DNA from: Candidatus Omnitrophota bacterium | GTDB taxonomy: Bacteria > Omnitrophota > Omnitrophia > Omnitrophales > Aquincolibacteriaceae | Assembly: GCA_043718225.1 (NCBI GenBank) | Contig: JAYSWD010000001.1 | Location: forward strand, 49,092-113,091 | Length of the DNA: 64,000 nucleotides | Direction: 5' to 3' | In this document: positions 5,818-45,423 of the stretch, piece by piece | Position numbering within the stretch: position 1 is the first letter of the stretch | How the letters are laid out: each line of letters opens with the position of its first letter | Notes under the pieces: generated by a model | Seen by the model: the letters and a program-made list of their open reading frames with translations, nothing else | Databases searched by the model: none | What the model was told of the DNA's origin: nothing | Translations under genes and position numbers: made by a program

Positions 5818-6731
5818 TGCTGATCGGCGAAGCTTTATCTCTAGGAGAAAACCGGCTGAAACTTGCTGGCGTCCTTGAGGCTAGGACTGAATGCGAGCAT
5901 ATGTTGATGGAGCTGATGAACGCGAATCGTTCAGAAGTGCTGTTTTATATTAGCTCTGAGCAAAGCTCAACCGCGCCGTTTCATTTTGCCTCTGAGCCTT
6001 CGGCTCAAACGGCGAAGAGCAATTTGACGGCGCAGCAAGAGAAACAGTTTTTTGATTGGATTGCGAGCAGGGGAAAAAGAATTCCTTTGGCGTATTTGCT
6101 GGGCGATACGTTTTTTCATTCTTTGAAATTAAAAGTGGGACCGGGATGTTTGATTCCGCGGCCTGAAACAGAACGGTTGGTGGAAGCGGCGCTTAAGATT
6201 ATCCGCGAAGATAAATTGAATGCCCCGGTAATCATGGATATTGGAACGGGATCGGGCGCGATTGCGCTTGCGATTTTAGCCGCCGTGCCTGAGGCTAAAG
6301 CGGTGATGGTTGACTTTTCTGCGGAAGCTTTGAAGATTGCCCGTGAGAATACTGCGGAACTTGGATTTTTAGGCCGCGCTGAGTTAATTCACTCAGATTT
6401 ATATTTAAATATACCGTCTGATTTGAAAGTTAATTTGATTTTGTCGAATCCGCCCTATTTAACGGCCGAAGATTTGGCCGGCCTGCAGCCGGAAGTGGTT
6501 TTTGAGCCGCGAATGGCATTAGACGGCGGGAAAGACGGCTTGGATTTTTACCGGAAAATGATTCCGGATGCCGCAAAGTTTTTAAAGCCGCAAGGCTGGT
6601 TGGGATTTGAAGTCGGCGCCGGACAGGCCCAGGCAGTTAGCGCAGAGTTAAAGAGAAACGGTTATGAAGATCTGAGAATTATTAAAGATCATCAAGATAT
6701 AGAGCGCATAGTTTTAGCCCGAAAAGGTTGA
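5817..6731 (+). CDS. prmC: release factor glutamine N5-methyltransferase PrmC/HemK, carrying an in-frame ~20 aa insertion made of two Family A repeat copies
   Basis: NPPY motif (LSNPPYL), the SAM-binding MDIGTGSGAIA, and PLAYLLG..LIPRPETE. It aligns collinearly with E. coli PrmC except for the insertion SSTAPFHFASEPSAQTAKSN. Confidence 0.85.
   Translation: MLIGEALSLGENRLKLAGVLEARTECEHMLMELMNANRSEVLFYISSEQSSTAPFHFASEPSAQTAKSNLTAQQEKQFFDWIASRGKRIPLAYLLGDTFFHSLKLKVGPGCLIPRPETERLVEAALKIIREDKLNAPVIMDIGTGSGAIALAILAAVPEAKAVMVDFSAEALKIARENTAELGFLGRAELIHSDLYLNIPSDLKVNLILSNPPYLTAEDLAGLQPEVVFEPRMALDGGKDGLDFYRKMIPDAAKFLKPQGWLGFEVGAGQAQAVSAELKRNGYEDLRIIKDHQDIERIVLARKG
5943..5964 (+). repeat. Family A repeat, in-frame inside prmC
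   Basis: gctctgagcaaagctcaaccgc. Confidence 0.8.
5979..6004 (+). repeat. Family A repeat, in-frame inside prmC
   Basis: cctctgagccttcggctcaaacggcg. Confidence 0.75.
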
Positions 6732-8475: not shown

Positions 8476-9237
8476 ATGTTAGAAATTGATATCGTCACGT
8501 TGTTTCCGGATTTTTTCGAATCTCCGTTGAAACAGTCGCTTTTGAAGCGCGCGCAGGCCGACGGATTGATTAAAATCCGCGTGCATAATCTGCGCGATTG
8601 GGCGCGCGATAAGCATCACAAAACGGATGATTCGCCTTTTGGCGGCGGCCCCGGAATGGTGTTTAAGATCGAGCCAATGCATGAGTGCTTGAAAGAAATC
8701 GGTGCGGGAGCATGGAAAATTTTGCTCGATGCGCATGGCGAATTGCTGAAGCCAAAGTTGGCTGAAAGCCTCGCGCAGAAAAAGAAAATTGTTTTGATCG
8801 CGGGCCATTACGAAGGTATGGACTACCGCATTAAAGAACACCTGGTCGACCAAATGGTTTCGGTCGGTGACTTTATTACGATGGGCGGCGAAGCCCCGGC
8901 CTTGTGTTTGATTGAAGCGCTGACAAGGTTTGTTCCGGACGTGCTCGGAAACGAAGAATCGACGGCAGAAGAGAGTTTTAGCGGCGGGATGCTTGAATAT
9001 CCGCAGTATACGCGGCCGCGCGAATATAACGGTTGGGAAGTTCCCGAAGTTTTGTTTTCGGGAAATCATGCGAAGATAAAAAAGTGGCGTAATGAGACGG
9101 CGGAGAAATTGACGCGGAAGCACAGACCAGACTTACTACATTCTGCTTCTGCGCTGCCGGCGCAACCAGCGGATGAAGAGGGCAACAAAACCGTGAAGGT
9201 TAAGCTGAAAAGAGAAAGAGCTTCGAAAAAGAAATAA
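8476..9237 (+). CDS. trmD: tRNA (guanine37-N1)-methyltransferase
   Basis: SPOUT TrmD motifs (IVTLFPDFF, SPFGGGPGMV, LIAGHYEGMDYR). I chose the ATG at 8476 (MLEIDIV); the upstream in-frame stretch is Family A repeat sequence. The C-terminal tail contains a Family A copy in-frame. Confidence 0.85.
   Translation: MLEIDIVTLFPDFFESPLKQSLLKRAQADGLIKIRVHNLRDWARDKHHKTDDSPFGGGPGMVFKIEPMHECLKEIGAGAWKILLDAHGELLKPKLAESLAQKKKIVLIAGHYEGMDYRIKEHLVDQMVSVGDFITMGGEAPALCLIEALTRFVPDVLGNEESTAEESFSGGMLEYPQYTRPREYNGWEVPEVLFSGNHAKIKKWRNETAEKLTRKHRPDLLHSASALPAQPADEEGNKTVKVKLKRERASKKK
9147..9170 (+). repeat. Family A variant, in-frame in the trmD 3' end
   Basis: cttctgcgctgccggcgcaaccagc. Confidence 0.6.
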
Positions 9238-9764: not shown

Positions 9765-10508
9765 ATGGCCACAGTAGGGTCTTCCGAAACTCAAATTGAG
9801 TTATTTGATTTTGACAGGAAGGCCATTCTTTCCGGTGGTCAGGCCGAAGGCGATACTGTCGGTCGCTGGGCCGGAGTCGATGAGGCCGGCCGAGGACCGC
9901 TCGCGGGTCCTGTGGTTGCCGCCGCGGTCATTCTGATCTTTCCCGAAGGCCTTGAAGGCTTAAATGACTCCAAGAAGCTCACCGCTAAAAAACGAAAAAT
10001 GCTTTACAGCGAAATTATTTCGCGCCAGTTGGTGGGAATCGGCTTCGCCGACGAAAAAGAAATCGACACGATTAATATTCTGCGAGCGTCATTACTTGCC
10101 ATGAAGCGCGCCGTGCTTGATCTTTGCATTTCTCCGACCGGCCTTTTAATTGACGGAACTTATTCCACGGATTTACCTCTTCCGCAAAAAACAGTGATCG
10201 AAGGCGACGCCAAATCCGCGAGTATCGCCGCCGCCTCGGTCGTTGCGAAAGTCGTGCGGGACGCGTGGATGGAAAAATGTGATATCGAATATCCGCTTTA
10301 TGGTTTCGGGAAACACAAGGGCTATGGAACTAAGATTCATATGGATGCGCTAACGGAACATGGGCCATGCGCGATTCACCGCCGTAGCTTTGAGCCGGTG
10401 CGACGGCTACATTTAAGCTCTGAGCCAAGGCTCAACCGCACGGAAAATCCCAGCTCTGGAATTTTGCCCCTGTCTGCCGGCAGGCAGGCAACCACGCACA
10501 TGCCATGA
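9765..10508 (+). CDS. rnhB: ribonuclease HII with a ~35 aa C-terminal tail encoded by repeat elements
   Basis: AGVDEAGRGPLAGPVV and HRRSFEPV motifs. The tail after ..PVRRLHL is encoded by Family A copies plus a CTGCCGGCAGG palindrome. The start is uncertain, since an internal Met is possible. Confidence 0.8.
   Translation: MATVGSSETQIELFDFDRKAILSGGQAEGDTVGRWAGVDEAGRGPLAGPVVAAAVILIFPEGLEGLNDSKKLTAKKRKMLYSEIISRQLVGIGFADEKEIDTINILRASLLAMKRAVLDLCISPTGLLIDGTYSTDLPLPQKTVIEGDAKSASIAAASVVAKVVRDAWMEKCDIEYPLYGFGKHKGYGTKIHMDALTEHGPCAIHRRSFEPVRRLHLSSEPRLNRTENPSSGILPLSAGRQATTHMP
10417..10439 (+). repeat. Family A repeat, in the rnhB C-terminal tail
   Basis: gctctgagccaaggctcaaccgc. Confidence 0.8.
10469..10488. 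repeat. Family E GC palindrome (CTGYCYGCCGGCRGGCAGG)
   Basis: cctgtctgccggcaggcagg, in the rnhB tail, where it encodes ..AGRQA.. Confidence 0.55.
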
Positions 10509-19679: not shown

Positions 19680-21311
19680 ATGTCGTCAAAAAAAACTGCC
19701 AACCCACTGAAAAAAAATTCCGCGAAACTTTCGCGAGTTAAACGCGCGCTTATCTCTGTCTCGGATAAGGAGGGCTTAATTCCTTTCGCGAAAAATCTGC
19801 GCCGTTTCAAAGTCGAAATTATTTCCACAGGCGGCACACTCAAAGCCTTGAAAGAAGCCGGGATTCCCGCAATCGCGATTGACCAAGTTACCGGCTTTCC
19901 TGAAATGATGGACGGTCGCGTCAAAACTTTGCATCCCAAAATTCACGGCGGTCTTTTATATGTGCGCGGCAACAAGTCGCATGAAAAACAAGCCAAAGCC
20001 CACGGCATTACCGCGATTGATTTAGTGGTGGTGAATCTTTATCCGTTTGAAGCTGTTACTCAGGACCCGAACGTGGAGCTCGCGCATGCAATTGAGAATA
20101 TTGATATTGGCGGACCTTCCATGCTGCGTTCAGCCGCCAAAAATTTTAAATCAGTTACGGTCGTTACGGATCCAAATGACTATCACCGCGTACTGCTTGA
20201 GATGGACACTTATAAAGGCGCAACTTCATATGATTTGCGTTTCGAACTTGCGCGCAAAGTTTACGCACGTACATCCGCTTATGATGCGGCCATTGCGGCA
20301 CATTTGAATGCGGAAGTTTCTTCCAAAGAAGAAGTGCTGCCCGCATCGATTGTAGTAGGCCTAAAAAAAACTCAGGAATTACGCTACGGAGAAAACCCAC
20401 ATCAGCGTGCGGCATATTATTCAGTTTCCGGTTGCGCCGGAGGCGCAGAGGGAAAAAACAAGTTGGCATGGAAACAGCTGCACGGCAAAGAACTTTCTTA
20501 TAATAATTTGGTGGATATGGAAGCGGCGATCGAATGCTCCGCCGAATTTAAAGAACCCTCGATTTGCGTGATTAAACATACCAACCCATGCGGCCTGGCG
20601 CAAAATAAAAATCTCGTTCAGGCTGTGGATGAGGCGATTGATTCAGACCCCGTTTCCGCATTTGGCGGCATCGTTGGCATTAATCGCATTTGCACCGAAG
20701 AAGTCGCACAGCGGATTTTAGACCGCCTCGGTTTTTTTGAAATTATCGTTGCGCCCGGCTACAAACCGAAAGCGCTTGCAAAACTTCAGGCGCGTAAAAA
20801 TTTGCGCATTATGGAAGTTGCTGGGCTTGATAATCAATCCGGTTTTGAAATTAAATTGCTGCGCACAGGCGCATTGGTTCAGGAGAAGAATCATCCGATC
20901 CGTTTCCGGCTTGCGGAGTTCAAGAAAAACCTGAAATGGGTTACGAAACATAAACTCACTAAAGATAAATTGGATGAACTGGTTTTTGCCTATCAATGCG
21001 CGAAACTTGTGAAATCAAACGCGATTGTTTTGACACAAGGTTTTAAAACCGTCGGTGTGGGTGCGGGTCAAATGTCGCGGGTCGACTCGACAAAAATCGC
21101 CTGTGATAAAGCCGGCGCGAAAACACGCGGCGCTTTCGTCGGCAGTGATGCATTCTTTCCGATGCCTGACTCAATCGAATATGCCGCAAAGTTCGGCATT
21201 GAAGCTATCATCCAGCCGGGTGGATCGATCAAAGATCAAGATGCGATTGATACTTGCAATAAACTGGGAATAGCCATGGTCTTCACTGGCGAACGACACT
21301 TCAAACATTAA
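19680..21311 (+). CDS. purH: bifunctional AICAR transformylase / IMP cyclohydrolase
   Basis: MGS-like N-terminus (KRALISVSDKEGL) and AICARFT domain, 543 aa. Confidence 0.9.
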   Translation: MSSKKTANPLKKNSAKLSRVKRALISVSDKEGLIPFAKNLRRFKVEIISTGGTLKALKEAGIPAIAIDQVTGFPEMMDGRVKTLHPKIHGGLLYVRGNKSHEKQAKAHGITAIDLVVVNLYPFEAVTQDPNVELAHAIENIDIGGPSMLRSAAKNFKSVTVVTDPNDYHRVLLEMDTYKGATSYDLRFELARKVYARTSAYDAAIAAHLNAEVSSKEEVLPASIVVGLKKTQELRYGENPHQRAAYYSVSGCAGGAEGKNKLAWKQLHGKELSYNNLVDMEAAIECSAEFKEPSICVIKHTNPCGLAQNKNLVQAVDEAIDSDPVSAFGGIVGINRICTEEVAQRILDRLGFFEIIVAPGYKPKALAKLQARKNLRIMEVAGLDNQSGFEIKLLRTGALVQEKNHPIRFRLAEFKKNLKWVTKHKLTKDKLDELVFAYQCAKLVKSNAIVLTQGFKTVGVGAGQMSRVDSTKIACDKAGAKTRGAFVGSDAFFPMPDSIEYAAKFGIEAIIQPGGSIKDQDAIDTCNKLGIAMVFTGERHFKH

Positions 21312-30672: not shown

Positions 30673-32436
30673 GCAGCCAAAGAATCTCCCAAACCCTCAG
30701 GTTATCTTGTTTTCGCGCGTAAATACCGCCCTCAGACTTTTGACGAAGTCGTCGGGCAGCAATCCACGCTGACAACGCTTAAAAACGCGCTGGCTTCGGG
30801 ACGTATCCCGCAAAGTTTTATTTTCTCAGGTTCCCGCGGCGTCGGAAAGACATCCGTCGCGCGTATTCTCGCGAAAGCTTTGAACGCGTCCGGCGGAGCA
30901 AACCCCGATTTTGACCGTAAAGACGCGGCTGCCCGTGAAATTGAAGAAGGCCGCTCCATGGATGTGCTTGAAATTGACGGCGCATCCAATCGCGGCATCG
31001 AAGAAATCCGTTCCTTGCGCGAAACCGTTAAATTCAAACCCGCATCCGGCGCGTATAAAATTTATATTATCGATGAAGTCCATATGCTCACAACCGAAGC
31101 GTTCAATGCTTTGCTCAAAACGCTTGAAGAGCCGCCACCGCATGTAAAATTTATTTTCGCGACAACTGAAATTCACAAAGTGCCGCTGACGATTCTTTCG
31201 CGCTGTCAGCGTTTTCATTTTCGCCGGCTCACCGCGGATGAAATTGTTGAGAAACTGGTCGATATCGCGAAAATTGAAAAAATCAAATGCGACAAAGACG
31301 CACTTTATTTAATCGCGCGCGCGAGTGACGGAGCGCTGCGTGACGCTGAAAGCCTGCTGGATCAAATTTCCAGTTTTTCCGACGGTGAAATTAAAGAAGA
31401 ATCCGTTCTGACATTGCTCGGAATTGCCTCCGACAAAATCAATGAAACTCTGATCGAAGCGGTGAAGGCGCGCAGCGGCCAGGATATTTTGGCCGTGATT
31501 CAATCTTTTTATGAAAGTGGCGGCGACTTGCTTCAGCTTTCGCGCGGATTTTTTGAAATTTTAAGGCATTTGCTTGTGCTGCAGCATGTCAAAGACACAC
31601 AGGGTTTAATCGAAGCGGGACCCGCGATGCTTGAAATGTTGAAAAAACATAAAGCCTCTTTTAGCGAAGCCGAAATTTTACTCGGCCTTGCCATCTTCCA
31701 AAACCTGCAGGCTGATTTGCGCCGGCCCGTAACCGCGCCGCGCTTCATGGTTGAAGCCGCTTTTTTAAAATTGATTTATGCCGACGGCATGCGTTCCGTA
31801 AACGAACTGATTTCTAATTTCTCCCTGCCTGCCGCCCGGCCGGTGAGCGAGCCGCAACCGGCAATACCAAAACGAAATATTTCTTCTGCTCCGGCTCAGC
31901 AAAACGTTCCACAGCCGCCGATTAAATCTCAGTCTGTCGCTCCGGTAAAACCTTCAACATACAATGAACCCAAAGCGCAGATCCAACCTAGGGTTGGTGG
32001 CTCGGGAACAGAGACGCTGGTTGCGCCTTTGGCGCAGAAGCAAAATGAAATAGCAATTGAACAGGTTAAGACGGCTTGGCCGAACGTGATTGAATCCGTC
32101 AAACAAAAGCGCATGTCCACCGGCATTTTTCTTTCCGAGGCCGAACCTGTCGAAGTAGATGACACTGTGATTATTTTAGGGCTTCCCGAAGAGTTTAAAT
32201 TTCATAAGGAGAGCCTTGAAAAAGATAACAATAAAAAACTGGTCGAAGATTGTTTTTCAGAAAGTATCGGAACCAAAGTCCGCGTGCGTTTTGTCGTGAC
32301 ACAGCAAGCTGCCGTCGAAAGACCGGCACCCCGGCCCGTGACGCTTCCTTCGGAGTCCGAAAAACGGGAGCTGCCAGATATTATTACGAAAGCGCTGGAT
32401 GTTTTTGACGGCGCTAAAATCGTTCGTGCTGAATAA
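30661..32436 (+). CDS. dnaX: DNA polymerase III subunit gamma/tau
   Basis: AAA+ clamp-loader motifs (GSRGVGKTS, DEVHMLT, SRCQRF). The start may be the second ATG at 30670. Confidence 0.9.
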   Translation: MTPMAAKESPKPSGYLVFARKYRPQTFDEVVGQQSTLTTLKNALASGRIPQSFIFSGSRGVGKTSVARILAKALNASGGANPDFDRKDAAAREIEEGRSMDVLEIDGASNRGIEEIRSLRETVKFKPASGAYKIYIIDEVHMLTTEAFNALLKTLEEPPPHVKFIFATTEIHKVPLTILSRCQRFHFRRLTADEIVEKLVDIAKIEKIKCDKDALYLIARASDGALRDAESLLDQISSFSDGEIKEESVLTLLGIASDKINETLIEAVKARSGQDILAVIQSFYESGGDLLQLSRGFFEILRHLLVLQHVKDTQGLIEAGPAMLEMLKKHKASFSEAEILLGLAIFQNLQADLRRPVTAPRFMVEAAFLKLIYADGMRSVNELISNFSLPAARPVSEPQPAIPKRNISSAPAQQNVPQPPIKSQSVAPVKPSTYNEPKAQIQPRVGGSGTETLVAPLAQKQNEIAIEQVKTAWPNVIESVKQKRMSTGIFLSEAEPVEVDDTVIILGLPEEFKFHKESLEKDNNKKLVEDCFSESIGTKVRVRFVVTQQAAVERPAPRPVTLPSESEKRELPDIITKALDVFDGAKIVRAE

Positions 32437-33245: not shown

Positions 33246-33282
33246 CAGTCTTTCCAAAATGAGGTTTTAAAAAGGAGATTTT

Positions 33283-34897: not shown

Positions 34898-34900
34898 CGG

Positions 34901-35320: not shown

Positions 35321-36586
35321 ATGTCGCAGGAGCTTTTGTCATCGTTGGAATATATCGAAAAAGAAAAGGGCGTTTCGCGCGAAGTCCTTTTTGACGCGAT
35401 TCGTCACGCCTTAATTTCCGCTTTACGTAAATCTTTTCCACAGTACGGCGAAGATTTTGACGTGCAAATCGATCCTCAAACGATGCGCATTCAATTATTG
35501 CGCGCCGGAAAACCTTTTCAAGATCCGCATTTCGGGCGCATCGCCGCACAAACCGCGAAGCAGGTCATCATTCAGAAAATCCGCGAAGCACAGCGGGATT
35601 CTATTTTTGATGAATTTACCGCGAAGCAAGGCGATATCGTGAACGGTACCGTTCATCGCGTGGACGCGCGCGCCATTGTTGTGGACTTCGGAAAAACTGA
35701 AGGAATTCTGCCTGCCCGTGAAATGTCCCCGGCGGATCAATACCGCCAAGGCAATGTCATCCGCGCTTTTGTGCTCGAAGTGAATCGTACGCCGCGCGGC
35801 CCGGAAATCATTCTTTCTCGCACGCATCCTGATTTCGTAAAAAAACTTTTTGAGCTCGAAGTTCCCGAAATCGCGGACAAACTTGTTTTGATTAAGGGCG
35901 TCGCGCGTGAGGCGGGCTCGCGCAGCAAGGTCGCCGTTGTTTCTTCGGATCCCAAAATCGACTGCGTTGGTTCCTGTGTGGGCGTACGCGGGCAGCGCGT
36001 GAAGAATATCGTGCGCGAACTGGAAGGCGAAAAAATTGATATTGTTCCGTACTCCGAAAAAATCGAAGAATTTATTAAAAGCGCGATGTCGCCGGCGGAA
36101 ATTTTTGAAATGAAACTTGACCGTCAGCGGCTAGTTGCCGACTTGCTTGTTAAAGATGACCAGCTTTCGCTGGCGATTGGAAAGCGGGGACAAAATGTGC
36201 GCCTTGCTTCCAAACTTGTGGGATGGACGATTGATGTTCGCAGCGAAGGCCAGCGCGCGGCTCTGGACGTGCTGCCCGGAATTGATGCCGCGGTGATTCA
36301 AACATTGAAGGCCGGCGGAATTTTATCTATCAAAGATGTTTTGAAGTCATCTCCCGAACAGCTGTCGCAGATTGCCGGGCTCGACTTGGCAACCGCGCAA
36401 AAAATTTTACAAGCCGCGGAAGCAACCAAGGCCGTAAAAGTTGAACCGGAAAAAGAAATACCAGTCGCAACTGAAAATATTGATGCGGTATCCGAAAATG
36501 AAAGTCCCGCTGTGGACAGTCAGCCCGAAGCAGAGAAGCCGTCTCATTCTTCCTCTGAGCCCTTGGCTCAACCGGATAAGGACTAA
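35321..36586 (+). CDS. nusA: transcription termination/antitermination factor NusA, C-terminal tail ending in a Family A repeat
   Basis: NusA N-terminal, S1 and two KH domains. The tail ..SSEPLAQPDKD is encoded by the CTCTGAGC..GCTCAACCGG element. Confidence 0.9.
   Translation: MSQELLSSLEYIEKEKGVSREVLFDAIRHALISALRKSFPQYGEDFDVQIDPQTMRIQLLRAGKPFQDPHFGRIAAQTAKQVIIQKIREAQRDSIFDEFTAKQGDIVNGTVHRVDARAIVVDFGKTEGILPAREMSPADQYRQGNVIRAFVLEVNRTPRGPEIILSRTHPDFVKKLFELEVPEIADKLVLIKGVAREAGSRSKVAVVSSDPKIDCVGSCVGVRGQRVKNIVRELEGEKIDIVPYSEKIEEFIKSAMSPAEIFEMKLDRQRLVADLLVKDDQLSLAIGKRGQNVRLASKLVGWTIDVRSEGQRAALDVLPGIDAAVIQTLKAGGILSIKDVLKSSPEQLSQIAGLDLATAQKILQAAEATKAVKVEPEKEIPVATENIDAVSENESPAVDSQPEAEKPSHSSSEPLAQPDKD
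36553..36576 (+). repeat. Family A repeat, in the nusA C-terminal tail
   Basis: cctctgagcccttggctcaaccgg. Confidence 0.75.
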
Positions 36587-36591: not shown

Positions 36592-38856
36592 ATGCGCGTT
36601 CATGAGCTTGCGAAGCAAATTGATAAAACGAGCAAAGAGATTATCGCTGAATTTGAAAAAATCGGCGTTTCCTTAAAGAGCCATATGTCTGTTATTCCCG
36701 ACGGAGCACTGCATCAATTAGCCTCTGCGTCTGCGACGAAACCGGCGGCAACAGCACCACAGTCCGTTCCAAAAAATGAAGAAGCAAAACAAAAAACAGC
36801 AGCCGGTAAAGCTTCTGCCCCCGCGCCAAAAGCGCAGCCGGCAGCAGCCAAACAAAAAGAAACCCCTAAAAAAGAAATCGCGCCCGCTCCGACGGTTGCC
36901 GCTCCTGTTGTTAAAAAAGAAGAGATAAAGCCCGTGGCGGAAGTAAAAGCGCCTGCGCCCGCAGCCGCTTCCATTGCCGCAGCCGTGCCGAAAGCAGCGT
37001 CTGCGCCGGCACCTGTTCCGTCTCGCTCTGCCTCTGGGCCTGCAGCCCAACCGACAAAAACGCCATATGAACGGCCGCGCGTGGAAGAAGTTCTGCCTCA
37101 AAAAGTGACATTGGCATTCCCGATTACGGTCGGAAATTTTTCTCAAGCCACTGGCCGCAAGGTCGCGGAAATTATTAAAACTCTGATGAAAATCGGCGTT
37201 ATGGCAAATGTGAACCAGCTCCTCAACGAAGAAATCGGAATGGGGCTCGCTTCCGCGTTAAGCATTGAAATTGAAAAAGAACAGGATGAAATCGAAGCTT
37301 TGCTGCGTGACTCGGCTCAGAGCGAAGACCCTACAAAATTAAAATTCCGTCCTCCCGTTGTAACAATGATGGGCCATGTTGATCACGGCAAAACATCACT
37401 TTTAGATGCGATCCGCAAAACGAGCGTCGCTTCCCGTGAAAAAGGATTTATTACGCAGCATATCGGCGCTTATGGCGTAGATGTTCCGGGCAAAGGGCAT
37501 GTGACTTTTCTTGATACACCGGGCCACGAAGCTTTTACCGCCATGCGTGCGCGCGGCGCGAACGTGACGGACATTGTGGTGCTTGTGGTTGCGGCGGATG
37601 ACGGCATTATGCCCCAAACAGTGGAGGCGATCGCGCATGCGCGCGAAGCCGGTTGTCCTATTATCGTCGCGATCAATAAAATTGATTTACCCGCGTCGAA
37701 TCTTGAAAAAGTAATGGGCGGCTTACAGAAAGCTGATTTAACTCCCGAAGAATGGGGCGGAAAAACGATTTGCGTGAAAGTCTCCGCGAAAACCGGTGCC
37801 GGAATCGACGAGCTTTTGGATATGCTTTTGCTGCAAGCGGAAGTTTTGGAATTAAAAGCTAACCCCGACCGTTTTGCAGTGGGAACTATTATTGAAGGCC
37901 ACTTGTCAAAAGGCAGCGGCCCCGCGGCAACCGTGATCGTTCAGAACGGAACTTTGAAAACAGGCGATATTATCGTCGCAGGCCCGAACATGGGCCGCGT
38001 ACGCGCGCTGCGTGATGATTTGGGTAAACATATGAAAGAAGCGGGACCGTCTTATGCCGCGGAAGTCATGGGGCTTGACGGCGTACCCGCCGCGGGCGAA
38101 ATTTTTCACGTTGCGCCGGATGAAAAAATCGCGCGCCGTTTCGCGGAAAAGAAAAGACTCGAATTGCGCGAAAAAGAGATGCATTCGGCCAGCAAACATA
38201 TGTCGCTTGAAAGTGTTTACGAAAAAATTTCCGAAGGTAATTTTAAAGAACTTAAATTAATTGTTAAAGCGGACGTGCAGGGTTCGATCGAAGCTTTGCG
38301 CGACGCTCTCGAGCGCCTTTCAACCGAAATGTGCCGTGTCCATATTATTCACAGCGTTGCCGGCGGCATCAATGAATCCGACGTCATGCTTGCGGCGGCG
38401 AGTGACGCCATCATTATCGGTTTTCATGTGCGCGCGGACGCGAAAGCCAAAGTGCTTGCGGACCGCGAAGGCGTGGATTTACGCTATTATGGAATTATTT
38501 ATGAAGCCGTAGAGAACGTAAAAATGGCCATGGAAGGAATTCTATCACCGACGCTTACGGAAAAAATAGTCGGGACGATTGAAGTTCGCCAGATTTTCAA
38601 ATCTTCAAAAGTAGGCACAATCGGCGGCGCTAAAGTTAAAAAAGGCACGGTCACACGCTCCAATCAAATCCGCGTACTGCGCGACAATGTGGTGTTGTTT
38701 GAAGGTAAGCTGGCATCGCTTAAGCGTTTCAAGGATGACGTTCGTGAGGTCAAAGAAGGCTTCGAATGCGGCGTTGCGGTGGAAGGCTTTAATGATTTGC
38801 AGCCCGGAGATCTTATAGAAGCTTTCCATATTGAAAAAACTGCGACCAAACTTTAA
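36592..38856 (+). CDS. infB: translation initiation factor IF-2
   Basis: Ala/Pro-rich N-terminal region, a G-domain (GHVDHGKTSLLD, DTPGHEAF, NKID) and C-terminal domains. Confidence 0.9.
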   Translation: MRVHELAKQIDKTSKEIIAEFEKIGVSLKSHMSVIPDGALHQLASASATKPAATAPQSVPKNEEAKQKTAAGKASAPAPKAQPAAAKQKETPKKEIAPAPTVAAPVVKKEEIKPVAEVKAPAPAAASIAAAVPKAASAPAPVPSRSASGPAAQPTKTPYERPRVEEVLPQKVTLAFPITVGNFSQATGRKVAEIIKTLMKIGVMANVNQLLNEEIGMGLASALSIEIEKEQDEIEALLRDSAQSEDPTKLKFRPPVVTMMGHVDHGKTSLLDAIRKTSVASREKGFITQHIGAYGVDVPGKGHVTFLDTPGHEAFTAMRARGANVTDIVVLVVAADDGIMPQTVEAIAHAREAGCPIIVAINKIDLPASNLEKVMGGLQKADLTPEEWGGKTICVKVSAKTGAGIDELLDMLLLQAEVLELKANPDRFAVGTIIEGHLSKGSGPAATVIVQNGTLKTGDIIVAGPNMGRVRALRDDLGKHMKEAGPSYAAEVMGLDGVPAAGEIFHVAPDEKIARRFAEKKRLELREKEMHSASKHMSLESVYEKISEGNFKELKLIVKADVQGSIEALRDALERLSTEMCRVHIIHSVAGGINESDVMLAAASDAIIIGFHVRADAKAKVLADREGVDLRYYGIIYEAVENVKMAMEGILSPTLTEKIVGTIEVRQIFKSSKVGTIGGAKVKKGTVTRSNQIRVLRDNVVLFEGKLASLKRFKDDVREVKEGFECGVAVEGFNDLQPGDLIEAFHIEKTATKL

Positions 38857-38957
38857 TTCGCTGAAAAATGTTCATCTGCTTCGTCAGTCGCTTCGCTTCC
38901 TTGTGCGGGTATTGCCGCATACGCCTCCGCGGGCGCTCGCGACTTCCTCGCGTCTAA
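38854..38957 (+). repeat. Family B repeat
   Basis: Copy after infB: atctgcttcgtcag ... cttccttgtgcgggtattgccgcatacgcctccgcggg ... tttttttga. Confidence 0.75.
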
Positions 38958-39002
38958 ATTTTTTTGAGCGAATTTAATATTTTTTGAATTTAGGAATTAT
39001 TT

Positions 39003-39398: not shown

Positions 39399-40138
39399 GC
39401 ACGCCCGTGCCACTTTCCGTGTCAGCGGATATTAACGGTATTTTGCTGGTTGATAAGCCTACCGGATGGACTTCGCATGATGTCTGTGCTTTTGTGCGCG
39501 GACGTTTTAGGATTCCGAAAGTTGGGCATGCCGGAACGCTTGATCCCAATGCAACCGGGCTTTTAGTATTGCTTTTGGGCCGGTTTACGCGCCAGTCCGC
39601 AGATTGGAGTTCTTGCGACAAAGATTATGAAGGGGCCATGGAACTTGGCGTCGAAACAGACAGCCACGACCGCCAGGGCAAGGTCACGAGAGAAGCTCCT
39701 GCGGATCACATCACTGAAGCGGCCGTCAAAGACGGAATGAAAAAATTTGTCGGAGAAATCATGCAGATTCCGCCGATGGTCTCGGCTGTAAAGCACCAGG
39801 GCAAACGTTTGTATGAACTCGCGCGCAAAGGACAAGTGGTCGAACGCGAAAGCCGTCCCGCGATTGTGTATGGCTGGGATTTTCTGGAAAAGAACGGCAA
39901 TTTCATCAAATTTAAATGTTCCGTTTCCAAAGGAACTTATGTGCGTACGCTTGCCGATGATTTGGGCCATCAATTAGGCTGCGGCGCGGTACTCGCTGAA
40001 TTGCGGCGCACGCGTTGCGGCCCTTTCAAAATTGAAAACAGCGTCCGCGTGGATCAGCTCAAAGAAATGCTCAGCGAAGATTTTCCCGCGCGTGTGCTGA
40101 TTCCTTCCGCCGCTGCAGCGAAGCCGCCGATTCAATAA
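39395..40138 (+). CDS. truB: tRNA pseudouridine(55) synthase
   Basis: Catalytic motif GHAGTLDPNATGLLVL. The start overlaps the rbfA stop. Confidence 0.9.
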   Translation: MSTPVPLSVSADINGILLVDKPTGWTSHDVCAFVRGRFRIPKVGHAGTLDPNATGLLVLLLGRFTRQSADWSSCDKDYEGAMELGVETDSHDRQGKVTREAPADHITEAAVKDGMKKFVGEIMQIPPMVSAVKHQGKRLYELARKGQVVERESRPAIVYGWDFLEKNGNFIKFKCSVSKGTYVRTLADDLGHQLGCGAVLAELRRTRCGPFKIENSVRVDQLKEMLSEDFPARVLIPSAAAAKPPIQ

Positions 40139-40142: not shown

Positions 40143-41132
40143 ATGCGGATTTTTAAGGTAACGGCGTCATTTAAAAAAATTACCAAACGGCCGCTTGTTC
40201 TTGCGCTCGGAAATTTTGACGGTATTCACCGGGGGCATCAAAAGCTTTTAGATTATGTTGTCAGCCAGGCAAAGAAACTGCATGGTTGCGCGGCAGTGTT
40301 TACTTTTCAAGAGCATCCGCAAGCGATTTTGCATCCGGAACATGCGCCCGAAAGCCTGCAAGCGCTTGAGCAAAAACTGGCGCTTTTCCGAGCGCGCGGA
40401 ATCGAGATTTCTTTTTTACAGAATTTTGATTCGCGTTTTTCGATGCTTTCGGCGGAAGAGTTTGTAAAAAAAATTCTTGTTAAGCAGCTTGGCATTCGCG
40501 AGATTTGCCTCGGTTATAACGCGCGTTTTGGCCGCGGGCGGGAAGGCGATGCAGATCTTCTCCGTAAGCTGGGCAAAGAATGCGGTTTTAAGGTTTTTCA
40601 GGCGCGGCCTGTCGCTTGGCGGGGAGTGCCGGTTTCAAGTACGGCGGTCAGAAAAGCCGTACATGCGGGGAAAATGAACCTCGCGGCGCAATTATTGGGG
40701 CGGCCGTGGAGCGTAGCGGGTATCATCAAGCGCGGAAGTGCGCGCGGGGAAAAACTGGGGTTTGCTACGGCGAACATGGATTTAAATAAATATGCACGCC
40801 CGGCTTTTGGAGTTTATGCCGTCCATGTGCTGCTACATAATATTGCCTCTGCGCCTAAGGCGCAACCGGCGCAGCGTCGTTCAGCCTCTGGGCTCACCCA
40901 ACCGGCATTTTGCAACGGTGTGGCGAATTTTGGATTGAGGCCTACTTTTGGAGGAACGGTAAAGCCTGTTTTGGAAACCCATCTTTTTAATTTTAAGAAA
41001 AACATTTACGGAAAAAAAATAGAAGTATTTTTTGTGAAGCGCCTGAGAAATGAAAAAAAATTTACCTCCAAAGAAGAGCTCGCGAAACAAATTCAAAAAG
41101 ATATTCGTGCCGCGAAGGTCGCGTTGAAATAA
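40143..41132 (+). CDS. ribF: bifunctional riboflavin kinase / FMN adenylyltransferase, with a ~20 aa in-frame insertion made of two Family A repeats
   Basis: N-terminal FMNAT (GNFDGIHRGHQ) and C-terminal riboflavin kinase (GVYAV..GVANFGLRPTF). The insertion ASAPKAQPAQRRSASGLTQPA sits in a loop that is absent from E. coli RibF. Confidence 0.85.
   Translation: MRIFKVTASFKKITKRPLVLALGNFDGIHRGHQKLLDYVVSQAKKLHGCAAVFTFQEHPQAILHPEHAPESLQALEQKLALFRARGIEISFLQNFDSRFSMLSAEEFVKKILVKQLGIREICLGYNARFGRGREGDADLLRKLGKECGFKVFQARPVAWRGVPVSSTAVRKAVHAGKMNLAAQLLGRPWSVAGIIKRGSARGEKLGFATANMDLNKYARPAFGVYAVHVLLHNIASAPKAQPAQRRSASGLTQPAFCNGVANFGLRPTFGGTVKPVLETHLFNFKKNIYGKKIEVFFVKRLRNEKKFTSKEELAKQIQKDIRAAKVALK
40846..40870 (+). 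repeat. Family A repeat, in-frame inside ribF
   Basis: gcctctgcgcctaaggcgcaaccggc. Confidence 0.75.
40884..40906 (+). repeat. Family A repeat, in-frame inside ribF
   Basis: gcctctgggctcacccaaccggc. Confidence 0.75.
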
Positions 41133-43089: not shown

Positions 43090-45279
43090 ATGTTGAACCC
43101 TAAGCAAGTGTCTTTCAATCTCGGCGGACGCGAATATATTCTTGAAACAGGTAAAGTTGCCCGTCAGGCCAGCGGGTCAGTGCTCGTAAAATGTGGCGAC
43201 AGCGTTGTGCTTGTCGCGGTTGTCGGCGCTCCGGAATCGGAAACTCCACGCGATTTTTTTCCTTTAACCGTGGATTTTCGTGAACGCGCTTATGCCGCAG
43301 GCCGTTTTCCGGGCGGATATTTCAAGCGTGAAGGCAAAGCATCCGAGCGCGAAGTTTTAGTTTCGCGTTTGATTGACCGCCCGATCCGCGCGCTTTTCCC
43401 TAAGAATTACCGCAGCGAAGTCAGCGTTTCGATCATGGTGCTTTCATCTGATCCCGATGCACAGACCGATATCATGGCGATGATCGGAGCTTCGGCTGCG
43501 ATTCACATCTCAGACATTCCTTTTGCCGAACCGATGGGTTCGGTGCGTGTCGGACTCATTGACGGTAACTTTGTCATTAATCCATCCGCCGCGGAACTTG
43601 AAACCAGCGATTTGGATCTTGTTATGGCCGGCACTAAAAATGCCGTCGGCATGCTTGAAGCGGGCGCAAATGAAATTTCCGAAGAAAAAGTTTTCGAAGC
43701 GATTCAATTCGGCCATAAAGCCATTCAGGAAGTTATTGCCGCGCAGCAAAAACTTTTTGACTTGGTGAAACCGATTAAGCGTGTTGTTAAAGGCGTTCAG
43801 ATCAACGAAGAATACGTGAATAAAATCACCGAAAGCCTCGGCTCTGAATTTAAGAATGTTTTCGGCAAGAAAACAAAAGTTGAGCAGGATGCAGTTTTAG
43901 GCGCGATTAAAGAAAAAGCGCTCGCGCTTTTTGACACTACAAGCGCCGATTTTAAGAAAGCCGATTTCATCGAAGCTTTCGCTAAAGTTGAAAAGAAAAA
44001 AGTCCGCGAAGGATATATTAAGGACAACAAGCGCGTCGACGGCCGCGGTTTCTACGATATTCGCCAAATTGTATGCGAAGTCGGAATGCTGCCCCGCACA
44101 CACGGTTCCTCGCTTTTTACACGCGGTCAAACGCAGAGTTTGGGCGTTGCGACGCTTGGCACAGGCCAGGACGAGCAGACGGTTGATTTGCTGCATGGGC
44201 CGACTTCCAAGAGTTTCCTTTTGCATTACAACTTTCCTTCATTTAGCGTGAATGAATCCAAGCCGGATCGCGGGCCGGGCCGCCGCGAAGTAGGGCATGG
44301 CGCATTGGCAGAACGGGCTTTATCGCCTGTGATTCCTTCGCCTGAAGATTTTCCGTACACCATTCGCGTTGTTTCCGATATTTTGGAATCAAACGGTTCA
44401 AGTTCAATGGCGAGTGTTTGCGCCGGAACTTTGGCTTTGATGGATGCAGGCGTACCGATTAAGTCGCCAGTTTCCGGAATCGCGATGGGCCTTGTTACCG
44501 ACGGCGATGAATTCCGTGTATTAACGGACATTGCCGGTATCGAAGACCATCTGGGCGATATGGATTTCAAAGCCGCCGGAACAATCAACGGTCTTACGGC
44601 AATTCAAATGGATTTGAAGCTTTCGGGAATCAGTGAAAAAATTCTCAAAACAGCTTTTGATGATTCGAAAAAAGCGCGCCTCACGATCATGAAACTTTTG
44701 ACGGATTGCATCTCTGAGCCGAAAAAAGAAGTTTCCGAATTCGCTCCGCGTATTACGACCATCCAGGTTGATCCCGAGAAAATCGGCGAAATCATCGGCC
44801 CTGGCGGAAAGAATATCCGTAAGCTTGTCGAAGAAACCGGCGCCAAGATTGATATTTCCGATGACGGCAGCATCAATATTTCCGCGGTTAATAAAACCAG
44901 CGTCGATGCCGCAATCGCCAAAATTCAATCGATTACCGAAGAACCCGAAGTCGGCAAAACCTATGACGCGGAAGTGAAGAAGCTGACATCGTTCGGCGCA
45001 TTCTGCGAAATTATTCCGGGCAAAGACGGATTGTTGCACGTTTCTGAAATGGCCGACGGCTTTGTGAAAAGCCCCGGTGATTATTTGAAAGTGGGCGACA
45101 AAGTTACCGTTCAGGTTGTCGGTGTTGATGACCGCGGCAAAGTTTCTTTGAGTGTGAAAGCGATTAATCCTGCGGGACTTCCGCTTTTGCCTGAAAGCGA
45201 ACGCGTTATGATCGAAGCTGAAGCTCCGCGCGGTGACCGCGGCGGACGCGGCGGCGGTTTTCGCGGCGGTAGACGCTGA
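43090..45279 (+). CDS. pnp: polyribonucleotide nucleotidyltransferase (PNPase)
   Basis: Two RNase PH domains, a KH and an S1 domain, and an RGG-rich C-terminus, downstream of rpsO. Confidence 0.9.
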   Translation: MLNPKQVSFNLGGREYILETGKVARQASGSVLVKCGDSVVLVAVVGAPESETPRDFFPLTVDFRERAYAAGRFPGGYFKREGKASEREVLVSRLIDRPIRALFPKNYRSEVSVSIMVLSSDPDAQTDIMAMIGASAAIHISDIPFAEPMGSVRVGLIDGNFVINPSAAELETSDLDLVMAGTKNAVGMLEAGANEISEEKVFEAIQFGHKAIQEVIAAQQKLFDLVKPIKRVVKGVQINEEYVNKITESLGSEFKNVFGKKTKVEQDAVLGAIKEKALALFDTTSADFKKADFIEAFAKVEKKKVREGYIKDNKRVDGRGFYDIRQIVCEVGMLPRTHGSSLFTRGQTQSLGVATLGTGQDEQTVDLLHGPTSKSFLLHYNFPSFSVNESKPDRGPGRREVGHGALAERALSPVIPSPEDFPYTIRVVSDILESNGSSSMASVCAGTLALMDAGVPIKSPVSGIAMGLVTDGDEFRVLTDIAGIEDHLGDMDFKAAGTINGLTAIQMDLKLSGISEKILKTAFDDSKKARLTIMKLLTDCISEPKKEVSEFAPRITTIQVDPEKIGEIIGPGGKNIRKLVEETGAKIDISDDGSINISAVNKTSVDAAIAKIQSITEEPEVGKTYDAEVKKLTSFGAFCEIIPGKDGLLHVSEMADGFVKSPGDYLKVGDKVTVQVVGVDDRGKVSLSVKAINPAGLPLLPESERVMIEAEAPRGDRGGRGGGFRGGRR

Positions 45280-45287
45280 TTCGTTTT

Positions 45288-45310
45288 GCCTCTGCGCAAA
45301 GCGCAACCGA
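45288..45310 (+). repeat. Family A repeat
   Basis: gcctctgcgcaaagcgcaaccga. Confidence 0.75.
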
Positions 45311-45326
45311 CGACAATTATATTTTT

Positions 45327-45358
45327 GCTCTGAGCTGCGCTCAACCGCGGCTCAGAGC
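45327..45358 (+). repeat. Family A repeat with a head-to-head partial inverted copy
   Basis: gctctgagctgcgctcaaccgcggctcagagc. Confidence 0.8.
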
Positions 45359-45390
45359 AAACTTTTTTTAGGGAAACTGTTTTTATTTAG

Positions 45391-45412
45391 TTCTGGGCTT
45401 CGCCCAACCACA
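45391..45412 (+). repeat. Family A repeat
   Basis: ttctgggcttcgcccaaccaca. Confidence 0.7.
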
Positions 45413-45423
45413 GGAAGAGAAAT

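What the first reader, a model, noticed from the sequence alone, without database searches (positions are those of the whole stretch)
40835..40910. Two repeat copies inserted in-frame in the riboflavin-kinase domain of RibF
E. coli RibF reads GVYAVEVLGLGEKPLPGVANIGTRPT. Here the equivalent loop reads GVYAVHVLLHNIASAPKAQPAQRRSASGLTQPAFCNGVANFGLRPT. The roughly 20 extra residues are encoded by two adjacent Family A elements (cctctgcgcctaaggcgcaaccggcg and cctctgggctcacccaaccggca). This is a second, independent case of the repeat being domesticated as a protein loop.
Basis: partly seen in the sequence, partly recalled or inferred. Interest (0 to 1): 0.75.

Follow-up and report, generated by a model that had tools for sequence, protein, structure and literature searches.

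The report
Small hairpin repeats translated inside RibF

Summary
ribF (40143-41132, +) is an intact 329-aa FAD_syn + Flavokinase gene. Its beta-hairpin loop carries two adjacent units of a real repeat family, "Family A": unit 1 at 40832-40873 is canonical, and unit 2 at 40871-40909 is degenerate.

Family A has a T-rich leader, then an outer helix, a conserved UCU/AACC internal loop and a GC inner hairpin. Both helices covary. The window holds about 30 copies in 64 kb. The family also occurs in related genomes and in 38 metagenome contigs, and it is absent from 321 kb of outgroup loci.

Most copies sit 4-27 nt after a stop codon, oriented with the upstream gene. About 12 window copies lie inside ORFs (prmC, trmD, rnhB, nusA, infB, ribF; antisense in purH and dnaX). 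Every sense copy is read in one frame, giving S-x-P...Q-P-A peptides.

Unit 1 is shared only with the closest orthologue (73% identity), and there its stem differs by a compensatory change. Unit 2 looks older. The loop is the L3c position and is predicted to be disordered.

"Inserted in-frame" is supported. "Domesticated" is not shown. The closest analogues are Rickettsia RPEs and REP elements, and I rate this a new variant of a known kind. No transposase was found.

The parts
40143..41132 (+). ribF, the host gene: a bifunctional riboflavin kinase / FMN adenylyltransferase, 329 aa, with an intact reading frame.
   Evidence: ORF. All homologues carry PF06574 + PF01687. E = 2e-38 to C. ammoniagenes FADS 2x0k. 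AlphaFold mean pLDDT is 88.
40832..40873 (+). Family A unit 1. Leader 40832-40847, core TCTG-CGCC-TAA-GGCG-CAACC at 40848-40867, outer helix GCC/GGC. It encodes (L)LHNI-ASAPKAQPA.
   Evidence: 39.0 bits, E = 9e-9. The fold shows inner and outer helices, -14.2 kcal/mol. An orthologous copy lies in L001 at 6099-6140 (31.4 bits) with stem TGCC/GGCA.
40871..40909 (+). Family A unit 2, degenerate. Leader gcagcgtcgttcagcc, core TCTG-GGC-TC-ACC-CAACC at 40887-40903 with a 3-nt deletion. It encodes QRRS-ASGLTQPA.
   Evidence: 18.3 bits, E = 0.005. The leader and core closely resemble the infB copy at 37017-37058. The fold keeps only GGG(G)/CCC(A) plus the outer GCC/GGC helix.
40845..40895 (+). Codons for residues 235-251, the part of the loop that AlphaFold cannot place (pLDDT < 50). 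It lies between strands 223-231 and 255-264.
   Evidence: It aligns to CaFADS residues 231-246, which is loop L3c (PMC5428420).
36708..36749 (+). Family A copy in the infB N-terminal linker (ASASATKPAA), in frame 0.
   Evidence: The orthologous copy in L028 at 654-695 has a compensatory T-A to G-C change.
36811..36843 (+). Degenerate Family A-like copy in infB (ASAPAPKAQPA). It is not detected by the covariance model.
   Evidence: Sequence read. It is the only [ATSV]QP[ATS] motif in the window that lies outside a model hit.
37017..37058 (+). Family A copy in infB (PSRSASGPAAQPT), in frame 0.
   Evidence: The orthologue in L001 at 2297-2338 has a G-C to C-G change.
36538..36579 (+). Family A copy that forms the last 10 codons of nusA.
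   Evidence: It is orthologous in L001, L028 and L030, where stem pair 23/29 reads C-G, U-A, U.G and U-A.
5939..6016 (+). Direct tandem pair of Family A copies in the prmC N-terminal domain (residues 47-65), in frame 0.
   Evidence: The copy at 5975-6016 has an identical core in metagenome locus L048 at 3696-3737, residue 50 of 304.
9132..9173 (+). Family A copy in the C-terminal tail of trmD, in frame 0.
10403..10443 (+). Family A copy in the C-terminal tail of rnhB, with its 5' part in frame 0.
20424..20465 (-). Family A copy lying antisense inside purH, in a loop 4 residues longer than in the solved PurH.
32013..32054 (-). Family A copy lying antisense in the dnaX linker between domain III and DnaX_C.
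45275..45415 (+). Three intergenic Family A copies directly after the pnp stop codon. This is a typical extragenic setting.

Best explanation
Family A is a lineage-specific, REP-like structured repeat about 38-42 nt long. It consists of a T-rich leader, a 3-bp outer helix, a conserved UCU/AACC internal loop and a 4-5-bp GC hairpin. It has multiplied to about one copy per 2 kb.

Its normal home is immediately downstream of a stop codon, oriented with the upstream gene. Copies that land inside an ORF, or are read into, survive only when three conditions hold: they are a multiple of three in length, they lie in the one frame that gives small, polar, Pro-rich residues (TCT|GNG|CC. ... CAA|CCG = S-[AEGV]-P ... 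Q-P-A), and they fall in a permissive region such as a tail, a linker or a loop tip.

In ribF two such units arrived in succession at the tip of the beta-hairpin that corresponds to loop L3c of the riboflavin-kinase module. Unit 2 came first and now survives as a KTQPA remnant in relatives. Unit 1 came later, in the common ancestor of this genome and its closest known relative. Together they add about 13-19 disordered residues and leave the catalytic core intact.

Shown: the family and its structure, the in-frame placement, the phyletic pattern of unit 1, and the disordered-loop location. Inferred: the order of the two insertions, the neutrality of the loop, and the way the element spreads. 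The mobilising activity is unknown.
For: - **Family is real.** 32 structural hits against 1-6 in shuffles. 30 model hits in the window.
- **Covariation.** Both helices are 87% paired against 68% in shuffles (0 of 500 reach the observed value) and 28-40% when the partners are slid. Pair 21/31 reads AU 12, CG 10, GC 7. Pair 16/37 reads CG 25, UA 5.
- **Clade-specific.** Copies occur in syntenic relatives L001, L028, L030, L027, L029 and L003 and in 38 metagenome contigs. None occur in 321 kb of outgroup loci, and there is no Rfam match.
- **Position and orientation.** TCTG lies 6-27 nt after the stop codon in the window. In 16 of 20 placed metagenome copies it lies 4-17 nt after the stop of a same-orientation ORF, against 3 copies that lie near an opposite-strand gene end only. 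In the convergent pair at L063 797(+)/921(-), each copy follows its own gene.
- **Single reading frame.** All 19 sense in-ORF copies in the window and syntenic relatives are in frame 0. So are all 6 from multi-copy metagenome loci.
- **Phyletic pattern in ribF.** Unit 1 is present in the window and in L001 only. It is absent from L003, L005, L027, L028, L029 and L030. P0001 and P0002 fall in one small group of the NJ tree together with P0005 (L028), which lacks unit 1.
- **Unit 2 is older.** [ATSV]QP[ATS] occurs 5 times in 19,159 window residues, always in Family A copies, yet the RibF loops of L001 and L003 read SKTQPA at the homologous place.
- **Structure.** Residues 235-251 have pLDDT < 50 between two confident strands. 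All 51 invariant columns of the orthologue alignment are retained.
- **Permissive site.** The site aligns with CaFADS L3c, residues 231-246. Loop length ranges from 10 to 31 residues among homologues.
- **Turnover between genomes.** For example, the site after the pnp stop is filled in the window and L028 but empty in L001.
Against: - No transposase or RAYT was found in the window (58 ORFs scanned) or next to any Family A copy. Mobility is therefore inferred only from presence/absence patterns.
- No target-site duplication or clean empty site can be read, because the nearest relative is only 73% identical in RibF.
- Orthologous copies keep their hairpins through compensatory changes in ribF, in infB (twice) and in nusA. 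A purely selfish, decaying insertion would not do this. It points to a function for the hairpin or to gene conversion among copies.
- Unit 2 is a weak family member and was part of the model's training set.
- The PTAN motif of the kinase reads ATAN here, so full activity of the enzyme is assumed and not shown.
Confidence: 0.7

Rival explanations
1. The ribF copies, and Family A in general, are functional cis-acting nucleic-acid structures kept by selection even inside ORFs. On this reading a clade-specific RNA (or single-stranded DNA) motif is recognised by a protein at cistron ends to affect mRNA 3'-end stability, processing or translation termination. The ribF, infB and prmC copies would then be true dual-coding segments and not merely tolerated junk.
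For: - Orthologous in-ORF copies differ by compensatory double changes. ribF unit 1 has CGCC/GGCG against TGCC/GGCA. infB 37033 against L001 2313 changes G-C to C-G. infB 36724 against L028 670 changes U-A to G-C. The nusA tail shows C-G, U.G and U-A.
- These changes cost amino-acid replacements (A to V, G to A, P...A to S...T).
- The internal loop UCU/AACC is invariant while both helices covary.
- There is a strict positional rule, 4-17 nt after stop codons, and the orientation follows transcription even at a convergent gene pair.
- Several intergenic copies are conserved at orthologous sites across genomes (after pssA, rpsO and pnp).
Against: - No binding protein, transcript end or phenotype is known.
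- Copies are gained and lost between close genomes.
- Unit 2 in ribF has a damaged hairpin, and the relatives' remnants have lost theirs.
- Gene conversion among copies could mimic compensatory evolution.
- In frame 0 the partner of stem position 21 is a synonymous third codon position, so pairing is cheap to keep.
Confidence: 0.2
2. The loop arose locally, through slippage or duplication of low-complexity Ala/Pro/Gln codons, or through duplication of unit 1 to give unit 2. On this reading its resemblance to the dispersed repeat is convergent.
For: The loop varies in length in many RibF proteins. The IF2 linker is Ala/Pro/Lys-rich in all relatives.
Against: - Unit 1 matches the family over leader, TCTG, a perfect 5-bp hairpin, CAACC and the outer helix (E about 9e-9). 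The same DNA motif is mostly intergenic, so the peptide cannot be what is selected.
- Unit 2 differs from unit 1 in stem type (GGC against CGCC) and in leader. It resembles the infB copy at 37017-37058 more closely.
Confidence: 0.03
3. Family A is a DNA-uptake-signal-like motif, or another word enriched by molecular drive. It would accumulate in place through biased uptake and recombination, not by insertion, and it would constrain the proteins it overlaps.
For: The density is about one copy per 2 kb. Copies occur inside genes in one preferred frame and in poorly conserved protein segments, as is reported for Haemophilus and Neisseria uptake sequences (my own knowledge).
Against: - The motif is a covarying hairpin with variable stem sequence and not a fixed word.
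- The filled and empty sites differ by a unit-length indel (ribF in L001 against L003; after pnp).
- Orientation tracks the upstream gene and the position tracks stop codons. Uptake signals do not need either.
Confidence: 0.04
4. The feature is an assembly or binning artefact, in which repeat-induced mis-joining created a chimeric ribF.
For: The source is a metagenome-assembled contig, and short repeats can mislead assemblers.
Against: - The ORF is continuous with both domains in the usual order, and synteny nusA-infB-rbfA-truB-ribF-psd-pssA is conserved in seven independent assemblies.
- An independent assembly of a different species (GCA_043732705.1 and a Logan assembly) carries unit 1 at the same codon.
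- The repeat is only about 40 nt, which is shorter than a sequencing read.
Confidence: 0.01

Closest known systems
Rickettsia palindromic elements (RPEs; Ogata et al. 2000, 2002, as summarised in PMC10969869)
   Same: Both are dispersed palindromic repeats inserted in-frame into unrelated housekeeping genes. Both are always read in a frame that gives a conserved, tolerated peptide, and both lie at sites compatible with the protein fold. Both also occur in non-coding DNA.
   Different: RPEs are about 100-150 bp, fall into ten families and are restricted to Rickettsia. Family A is about 40 nt, has a single stem / internal loop / stem, and occurs in an Omnitrophota-like lineage. Its main location is directly after stop codons, and orthologous copies show structure-preserving changes. 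No sequence relationship was tested.
REP / REPIN elements mobilised by RAYT (Y1) transposases (PMC3116915)
   Same: Both are 20-40-nt imperfect palindromes with conserved bases beside a variable stem. Both are present in hundreds of copies, mostly at gene 3' ends, as singlets, tandem clusters and some inverted doublets. In Family A the convergent inverted pairs are spaced 59-75 nt, for example 9253/9317 and 45966/46025. REP sequences are known to act as mRNA 3' stabilisers, and a REP close to a stop codon affects translation (my own knowledge: Newbury 1987; Liang 2015).
   Different: REPs are extragenic by definition, whereas about 40% of the window's Family A copies are inside ORFs. The conserved flank is TCTG...CAACC and not GTAG. 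Most copies are co-oriented singlets and not inverted REPIN doublets. No RAYT gene was found near any copy. RAYT-like ORFs were seen only in outgroup Omnitrophota loci that lack Family A.
Small dispersed repeats (SDR) of heterocystous cyanobacteria (Elhai et al. 2008; the paper is not held, and is cited through PMC2884548 and PMC3116915)
   Same: Both are very small (about 20-nt scale) dispersed elements that appear mobile, with no identified transposase. They are found inside otherwise conserved sequences.
   Different: The lineage and the sequence differ. I could not read the primary paper, so features such as a frame rule, a stop-codon association or stem covariation could not be compared.
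Loop L3c of Corynebacterium ammoniagenes FAD synthetase (residues 231-246)
   Same: Both are extensions of the same beta-hairpin loop in the riboflavin-kinase module (alignment). The lengths are similar.
   Different: CaFADS L3c is an ordered determinant of the dimer-of-trimers assembly and was thought to be limited to Corynebacterium and Mycobacterium. Here the extension is repeat-derived, predicted to be disordered and unrelated in sequence.

Membership tests
Type I bifunctional FAD synthetase (RibF), the host gene | An N-terminal FMN adenylyltransferase domain (PF06574) followed by a C-terminal riboflavin kinase domain (PF01687). | tested here: met
   All 120 listed homologues carry both domains and the query is covered 94-100%. 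Residues 19-326 align to CaFADS 2x0k, E = 2e-38. The AlphaFold model has pLDDT 88.
Type I bifunctional FAD synthetase (RibF), the host gene | The conserved kinase motifs: PTAN and the catalytic Glu, which is E268 in CaFADS. | tested here: inconclusive
   T209, N211 and E278 are invariant and present. The Pro of PTAN is Ala here (GFATAN), whereas at least 90% of aligned homologues have Pro.
Family A repeat (defined here) | T-rich leader, outer helix, UCU, a G-N-G-C(C) hairpin, then CAACC and the outer helix partner. | tested here: met
   Unit 1 scores 39.0 bits. Unit 2 scores 18.3 bits with a shortened hairpin.
Rickettsia palindromic elements | In-frame insertion of a palindromic repeat into ORFs, giving a conserved peptide. 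| tested here: met
   All 19 sense in-ORF copies in the window and syntenic relatives are in one frame and encode S-x-P...Q-P-A.
Rickettsia palindromic elements | Element length of about 100-150 bp and occurrence in Rickettsia. | tested here: not met
   The unit is about 38-42 nt. The host's RibF is nearest to Omnitrophota proteins.
REP / REPIN-RAYT | A short imperfect palindrome, highly repeated, mainly at gene 3' ends. | tested here: met
REP / REPIN-RAYT | Strictly extragenic location. | tested here: not met
   About 12 of 30 window copies lie inside ORFs.
REP / REPIN-RAYT | Organisation mainly as inverted doublets (REPINs) of near-identical REPs. | tested here: not met
   Most copies are co-oriented singlets or direct tandems spaced 36-39 nt. 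The few convergent pairs have different stems. One 97%-identical inverted pair flanks rplS, but the arms are 337 nt apart.
REP / REPIN-RAYT | A cognate RAYT (Y1 transposase) gene flanked by the repeats. | tested here: inconclusive
   None was found among 58 window ORFs or in any Family A-bearing locus by motif screen. Only a fraction of any genome was available.
MITE | Terminal inverted repeats and target-site duplications. | tested here: inconclusive
   No terminal inverted repeats exist beyond the hairpin itself. No duplication is visible at the filled and empty sites compared, but divergence is too high to be sure.
Described RNA families (Rfam 15) | A match to a curated covariance model. 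| tested here: not met
   The only gathering-threshold hits in the window are two tRNAs. Permissive scans over Family A copies gave nothing better than E = 0.23.

The most novel reading that the evidence does not exclude
Family A is not junk but a previously undescribed, clade-specific structured cis-element marking cistron ends. It would be recognised as RNA, or as single-stranded DNA, by a dedicated protein. Its hairpin is under purifying selection even where it is translated. On this reading ribF, infB, prmC and nusA contain true dual-coding segments, in which the protein sequence (A/V, G/A, P..A/S..T) drifts so as to preserve base pairs, and the internal copies may create regulated pause or processing sites inside essential mRNAs.
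Probability: 0.22. Interest if true: 0.75.

Novelty: new variant of a known kind. Interest (0 to 1): 0.55.

Why it matters
This shows that translated selfish or structured repeats in essential genes, best known from the obligate intracellular Rickettsia, also occur in an uncultured Omnitrophota-like lineage. Here the element is about four times smaller, and its rules can be read directly: one reading frame, permissive loops and tails, and a home position just after stop codons.

It also provides a natural experiment on how protein loops grow. In this clade the RibF L3c loop was lengthened in repeat-sized steps.

Finally, the compensatory changes in orthologous in-ORF copies make one question directly testable: can a nucleic-acid structure be selected through a coding sequence? 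For annotation, the S-x-P...Q-P-A peptides and the C-terminal tails they create are repeat-derived. They should not be read as functional motifs.

Tried and rejected
- **Flap I recollection.** I first recalled the insertion site as the "L1c-Flap I" loop. The literature shows that Flap I is CaFADS residues ~197-206 and that the aligned segment 231-246 is loop L3c. Corrected.
- **Decayed copies in other RibF loops.** I looked for them in L028, L029, L030, L027 and L005 with the covariance model, filters off. None was detected at E <= 1. The idea that all intermediate-length loops are ancient copies therefore stays speculative. Only the KTQPA remnant in L001 and L003 has statistical support.
- **Fixed frame for after-stop copies.** I tested whether copies after a stop codon are in a fixed frame with the upstream ORF. 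The result was 11 of 20 in the metagenome set but only 2 of 10 in the window, so this is not a general rule. Dropped.
- **boxA resemblance.** The similarity to boxA (GCUCUUUAACAA) was considered and dismissed as a coincidence, given the copy number.
- **Terminator reading.** The T-run precedes the hairpin and an A-run follows it on the other strand, so neither orientation looks like an intrinsic terminator.
- **Closer genomes.** The genome-contig scan returned only relatives that were at most 40% identical. Two attempts to extend beyond the window through the look-up of encoding contigs failed, because my ORF starts did not match the called genes.
- **Search for a RAYT.** Pfam scans of 58 window ORFs and a motif screen of 1,506 ORFs in all loci found RAYT-like genes only in outgroup loci L021 and L022, which lack Family A.
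- **Primary papers.** The RPE and cyanobacterial SDR papers are not held.
Full report
**1. The observation.**
It is a bona fide bifunctional RibF. Every close homologue carries PF06574 (FAD_syn) and PF01687 (Flavokinase). Residues 19-326 align to the Corynebacterium ammoniagenes FAD synthetase structure 2x0k (E = 2e-38). BLASTP leaves a 19-residue gap in E. coli opposite NIASAPKAQPAQRRSASGL. The two quoted DNA strings are at 40846-40871 and 40885-40907.

**2. "Family A" is a real repeat family.**
- A simple structural scan (TCTG, a 3-4-nt stem, a loop, the complementary stem, then CAACC) gives 32 hits in the window, against 1-6 in shuffled sequence.
- An alignment of 30 copies shows a T-rich leader (consensus nCnGTTTnnTTTTnGC), an invariant TCTG, a GC-rich hairpin, and CAACC followed by G.
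- Folding individual copies revealed a second, outer helix that joins the last three leader bases to the three bases after CAACC.
- Counting pairs on the alignment supports both helices. 87% of cells are paired, against 68% in column shuffles (0 of 500 shuffles reach the observed value) and 28-40% when partners are slid by 1-3 columns.
- Inner pair 21/31 reads AU 12, CG 10, GC 7. Outer pair 16/37 reads CG 25, UA 5, with no unpaired case.
- The element is therefore a stem / internal loop / stem, in which the internal loop (UCU on one side, AACC on the other) is conserved and the helices covary.
- No Rfam family matches it.

**3. Distribution of the family.**
- A covariance model built from the alignment finds 30 copies in the window.
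- It also finds copies in the syntenic loci of related genomes, which were independent of the training set: L001 has 12 copies at E <= 0.005, L028 has 6, L030 has 3, and L027, L029 and L003 have one each. L005 has none.
- It finds none in 321 kb from 21 more distant genomes, mostly Omnitrophota.
- An exact-pattern scan of public metagenomes returned 38 contigs, and the model finds 69 copies on them.
- The family is thus specific to one clade. The clade's RibF proteins are 57-73% identical to each other and 39-49% identical to the other proteins listed, several of which are named Omnitrophota.

**4. Where the copies sit.**
- In the window the intergenic copies start 6-27 nt after the stop codon of the upstream gene (murA/aroA-like, rpsP, trmD, rplS, pssA, rpsO, pnp, hemH, mscL). 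All of these are on the gene's strand.
- In the independent metagenome set, 20 copies could be placed within 60 nt after a same-orientation ORF. For 16 of them TCTG lies 4-17 nt after the stop. Only 3 copies lie next to the end of an opposite-strand gene alone.
- In the convergent gene pair on L063, each gene has its own copy in its own orientation.
- Orientation therefore follows transcription and not replication, although the window alone could not show this: GC skew is positive throughout and nearly all genes are on the + strand.
- Copies also form direct tandems spaced 36-39 nt (5955/5991, 45291/45329, 40848/40887) and convergent pairs spaced 59-75 nt.

**5. Copies inside genes.**
- Pfam and PDB comparisons place about a dozen window copies inside ORFs.
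- Two are in the N-terminal domain of PrmC. One each is in the C-terminal tails of TrmD, RNase HII and NusA. Two, plus one degenerate copy, are in the Ala/Pro-rich linker of IF2. Two are in RibF. One each lies antisense in a PurH loop and in the DnaX linker.
- Every sense copy has TCT as a codon: 9 of 9 in the window, 19 of 19 when the syntenic relatives are included, and 6 of 6 in multi-copy metagenome loci.
- That frame yields S-[AEGV]-[PS]-x-[AT]-Q-P-[AT]. The motif [ATSV]QP[ATS] occurs five times in the window's 19,159 ORF residues, and all five are in Family A copies.

**6. The two ribF units.**
- Unit 1 (40832-40873) is canonical: TCTG-CGCC-TAA-GGCG-CAACC with outer helix GCC/GGC, 39 bits.
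- Unit 2 (40871-40909) has a full leader (gcagcgtcgttcagcc, compared with ccgtctcgctctgcc in the infB copy), TCTG and CAACCGGC. A 3-nt deletion leaves only a GGG/CCC stem. It is the weakest member, at 18.3 bits and E about 0.005.

**7. Comparative DNA.**
- I retrieved ribF DNA from seven relatives. L001 is the closest (GCA_043732705.1, RibF 73% identical). It has unit 1 at the same codon: ttg gcc TCT GTG CCA AAG GCA CAA CCG gcg.
- Its stem is TGCC/GGCA where the window has CGCC/GGCG. That is a compensatory double change which costs an Ala to Val replacement.
- The other six (L003, L005, L027, L028, L029, L030) lack unit 1. An NJ tree made with the loop masked places P0001 and P0002 in one small group with P0005 (L028), which lacks unit 1. 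Unit 1 is therefore a derived insertion in the common ancestor of P0001 and P0002.
- At the place of unit 2, L001 and L003 read S-K-T-Q-P-A (tct aaa aca cag cca gct; tca aaa acc cag cct gcg). Because the QP motif is essentially diagnostic of Family A, I read this as the remnant of an older copy. That copy is still nearly intact, or has been refreshed, in the window.
- The model does not detect these remnants, so this step is an inference.

**8. Where the loop sits in the protein.**
- An AlphaFold model built from 29 homologues has mean pLDDT 88. Residues 235-251 (ASAPKAQPAQRRSASGL) are below 50 and connect two confident strands, 223-231 and 255-264.
- In the alignment to CaFADS the insertion falls on residues 231-246. 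The literature names this segment loop L3c. It is a determinant of the dimer-of-trimers assembly and was thought to be confined to Corynebacterium and Mycobacterium (PMC5428420). It is not Flap I, as I first recalled.
- Among the homologues aligned here this loop ranges from 10 to 31 residues, so the site is a permissive hot spot.
- All 51 invariant columns are intact. One caveat is that the PTAN motif reads ATAN.

**9. What the element is and how it works.**
- The combination of features fits a REP-like repeat that has been amplified and that survives inside genes only where selection permits. Those features are high copy number, clade specificity, gain and loss between related genomes (for example, the site after the pnp stop is filled in the window and L028 but empty in L001), tandem and inverted clustering, and unit-length indels.
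- The way the in-ORF copies are filtered parallels the Rickettsia palindromic elements, which insert in-frame into many housekeeping genes (PMC10969869).
- Family A differs from RPEs in size and lineage. It differs from classical REP/REPIN elements in being frequently intragenic, in being mostly co-oriented singlets, and in having no identified RAYT (PMC3116915).
- I found no transposase in the window. RAYT-like ORFs appear only in outgroup loci that lack Family A. The mobilising mechanism is therefore unknown.

**10. What does not fit a purely selfish reading.**
- Four orthologous in-ORF copies keep their hairpin through compensatory changes: ribF unit 1; infB 37033 against L001 2313 (G-C to C-G); infB 36724 against L028 670 (U-A to G-C); and the nusA tail, which reads C-G, U.G and U-A across four genomes.
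- Several intergenic copies are conserved at orthologous sites.
- Either the hairpin is functional, or the copies are homogenised by gene conversion. Possible functions, known for E. coli REP sequences from my own knowledge, are protection of the mRNA 3' end and modulation of translation termination.
- I give the functional, dual-coding reading about 0.2.

**11. Verdict.**
- "Domestication" of the peptide is not shown.
- The feature is a new variant of a known kind of phenomenon.
- It is moderately interesting in itself, and more interesting as an entry point to a previously undescribed structured repeat family.

Noticed in passing
window 18555-18700, 21315-21445, 24098-24225, 24215-24340, 33132-33260, 34776-34905, 38857-38985, 48440-48575 (+) and 2285-2435 (-): A second, larger intergenic repeat family ("Family B", about 110-130 nt), bounded by GAAAAA...TTTTTGA. 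It has an internal GCGTAT...ATACGC hairpin. RNAalifold predicts 36 pairs, and 16 of them show compensatory changes. It has no Rfam match. It could be a small RNA family or a MITE.
   Followed up: partly
window 5939-6016, 9132-9173, 10403-10443, 20424-20465(-), 32013-32054(-), 36538-36579, 36708-36749, 36811-36843, 37017-37058: Further Family A copies are translated inside prmC (two copies), the trmD tail, the rnhB tail, purH (antisense), the dnaX linker (antisense), the nusA tail and infB (2-3 copies). All sense copies are in the same frame. The truB C-terminal tail (about 40100-40138, SAAAAKPP) looks like a decayed copy.
   Followed up: partly
window 9313-9345 and 9683-9715: A 33-nt, 97%-complementary inverted pair of Family A copies brackets rplS, with 337 nt between the arms. 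It is the most similar pair of copies in the window and may reflect recent copying or conversion.
   Followed up: no
window 40758-40769 (RibF residues 206-209): The kinase PTAN motif reads ATAN (GFATANM). At least 90% of the aligned homologues have Pro at this position.
   Followed up: no
window 24412-26151 and 26185-27960: Two tandem paralogous CHASE2-GGDEF diguanylate cyclase genes, with segments about 72-74% identical at the DNA level.
   Followed up: no
window 48841-48926 and 48929-49014: An 86-nt direct tandem repeat (74% identity) in the long ftsK to response-regulator spacer. Each unit contains a small palindrome. The same spacer holds minus-oriented Family A copies here and in L001.
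   Followed up: no
window 28286-28311 / 34953-34978 and 28355-28388 / 35023-35056: Two short repeats (96% and 88% identity), the first a hairpin. Each lies about 180-250 nt downstream of one of the two tRNA genes (28023-28109 and 34703-34773).
   Followed up: no
window 61069-62829: A BamHI-like restriction endonuclease gene overlaps, on the opposite strand, an HTH-fused N6/N4 DNA methyltransferase gene. They lie in the lowest-GC part of the window (0.425).
   Followed up: no
L021 2687-3382 and L022 1-501: RAYT-like Y1 transposase ORFs (HFHLL ... YIEKNPVRAGVV) occur in two outgroup Omnitrophota genomes that have no Family A copies. REP-type systems therefore exist in the phylum but are not linked to Family A in the data at hand.
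   Followed up: no
alignment A1, columns about 250-292: Long extensions at the L3c position of RibF are common among Omnitrophota-type homologues (up to 31 residues). The literature describes L3c as restricted to Corynebacterium and Mycobacterium.
   Followed up: partly
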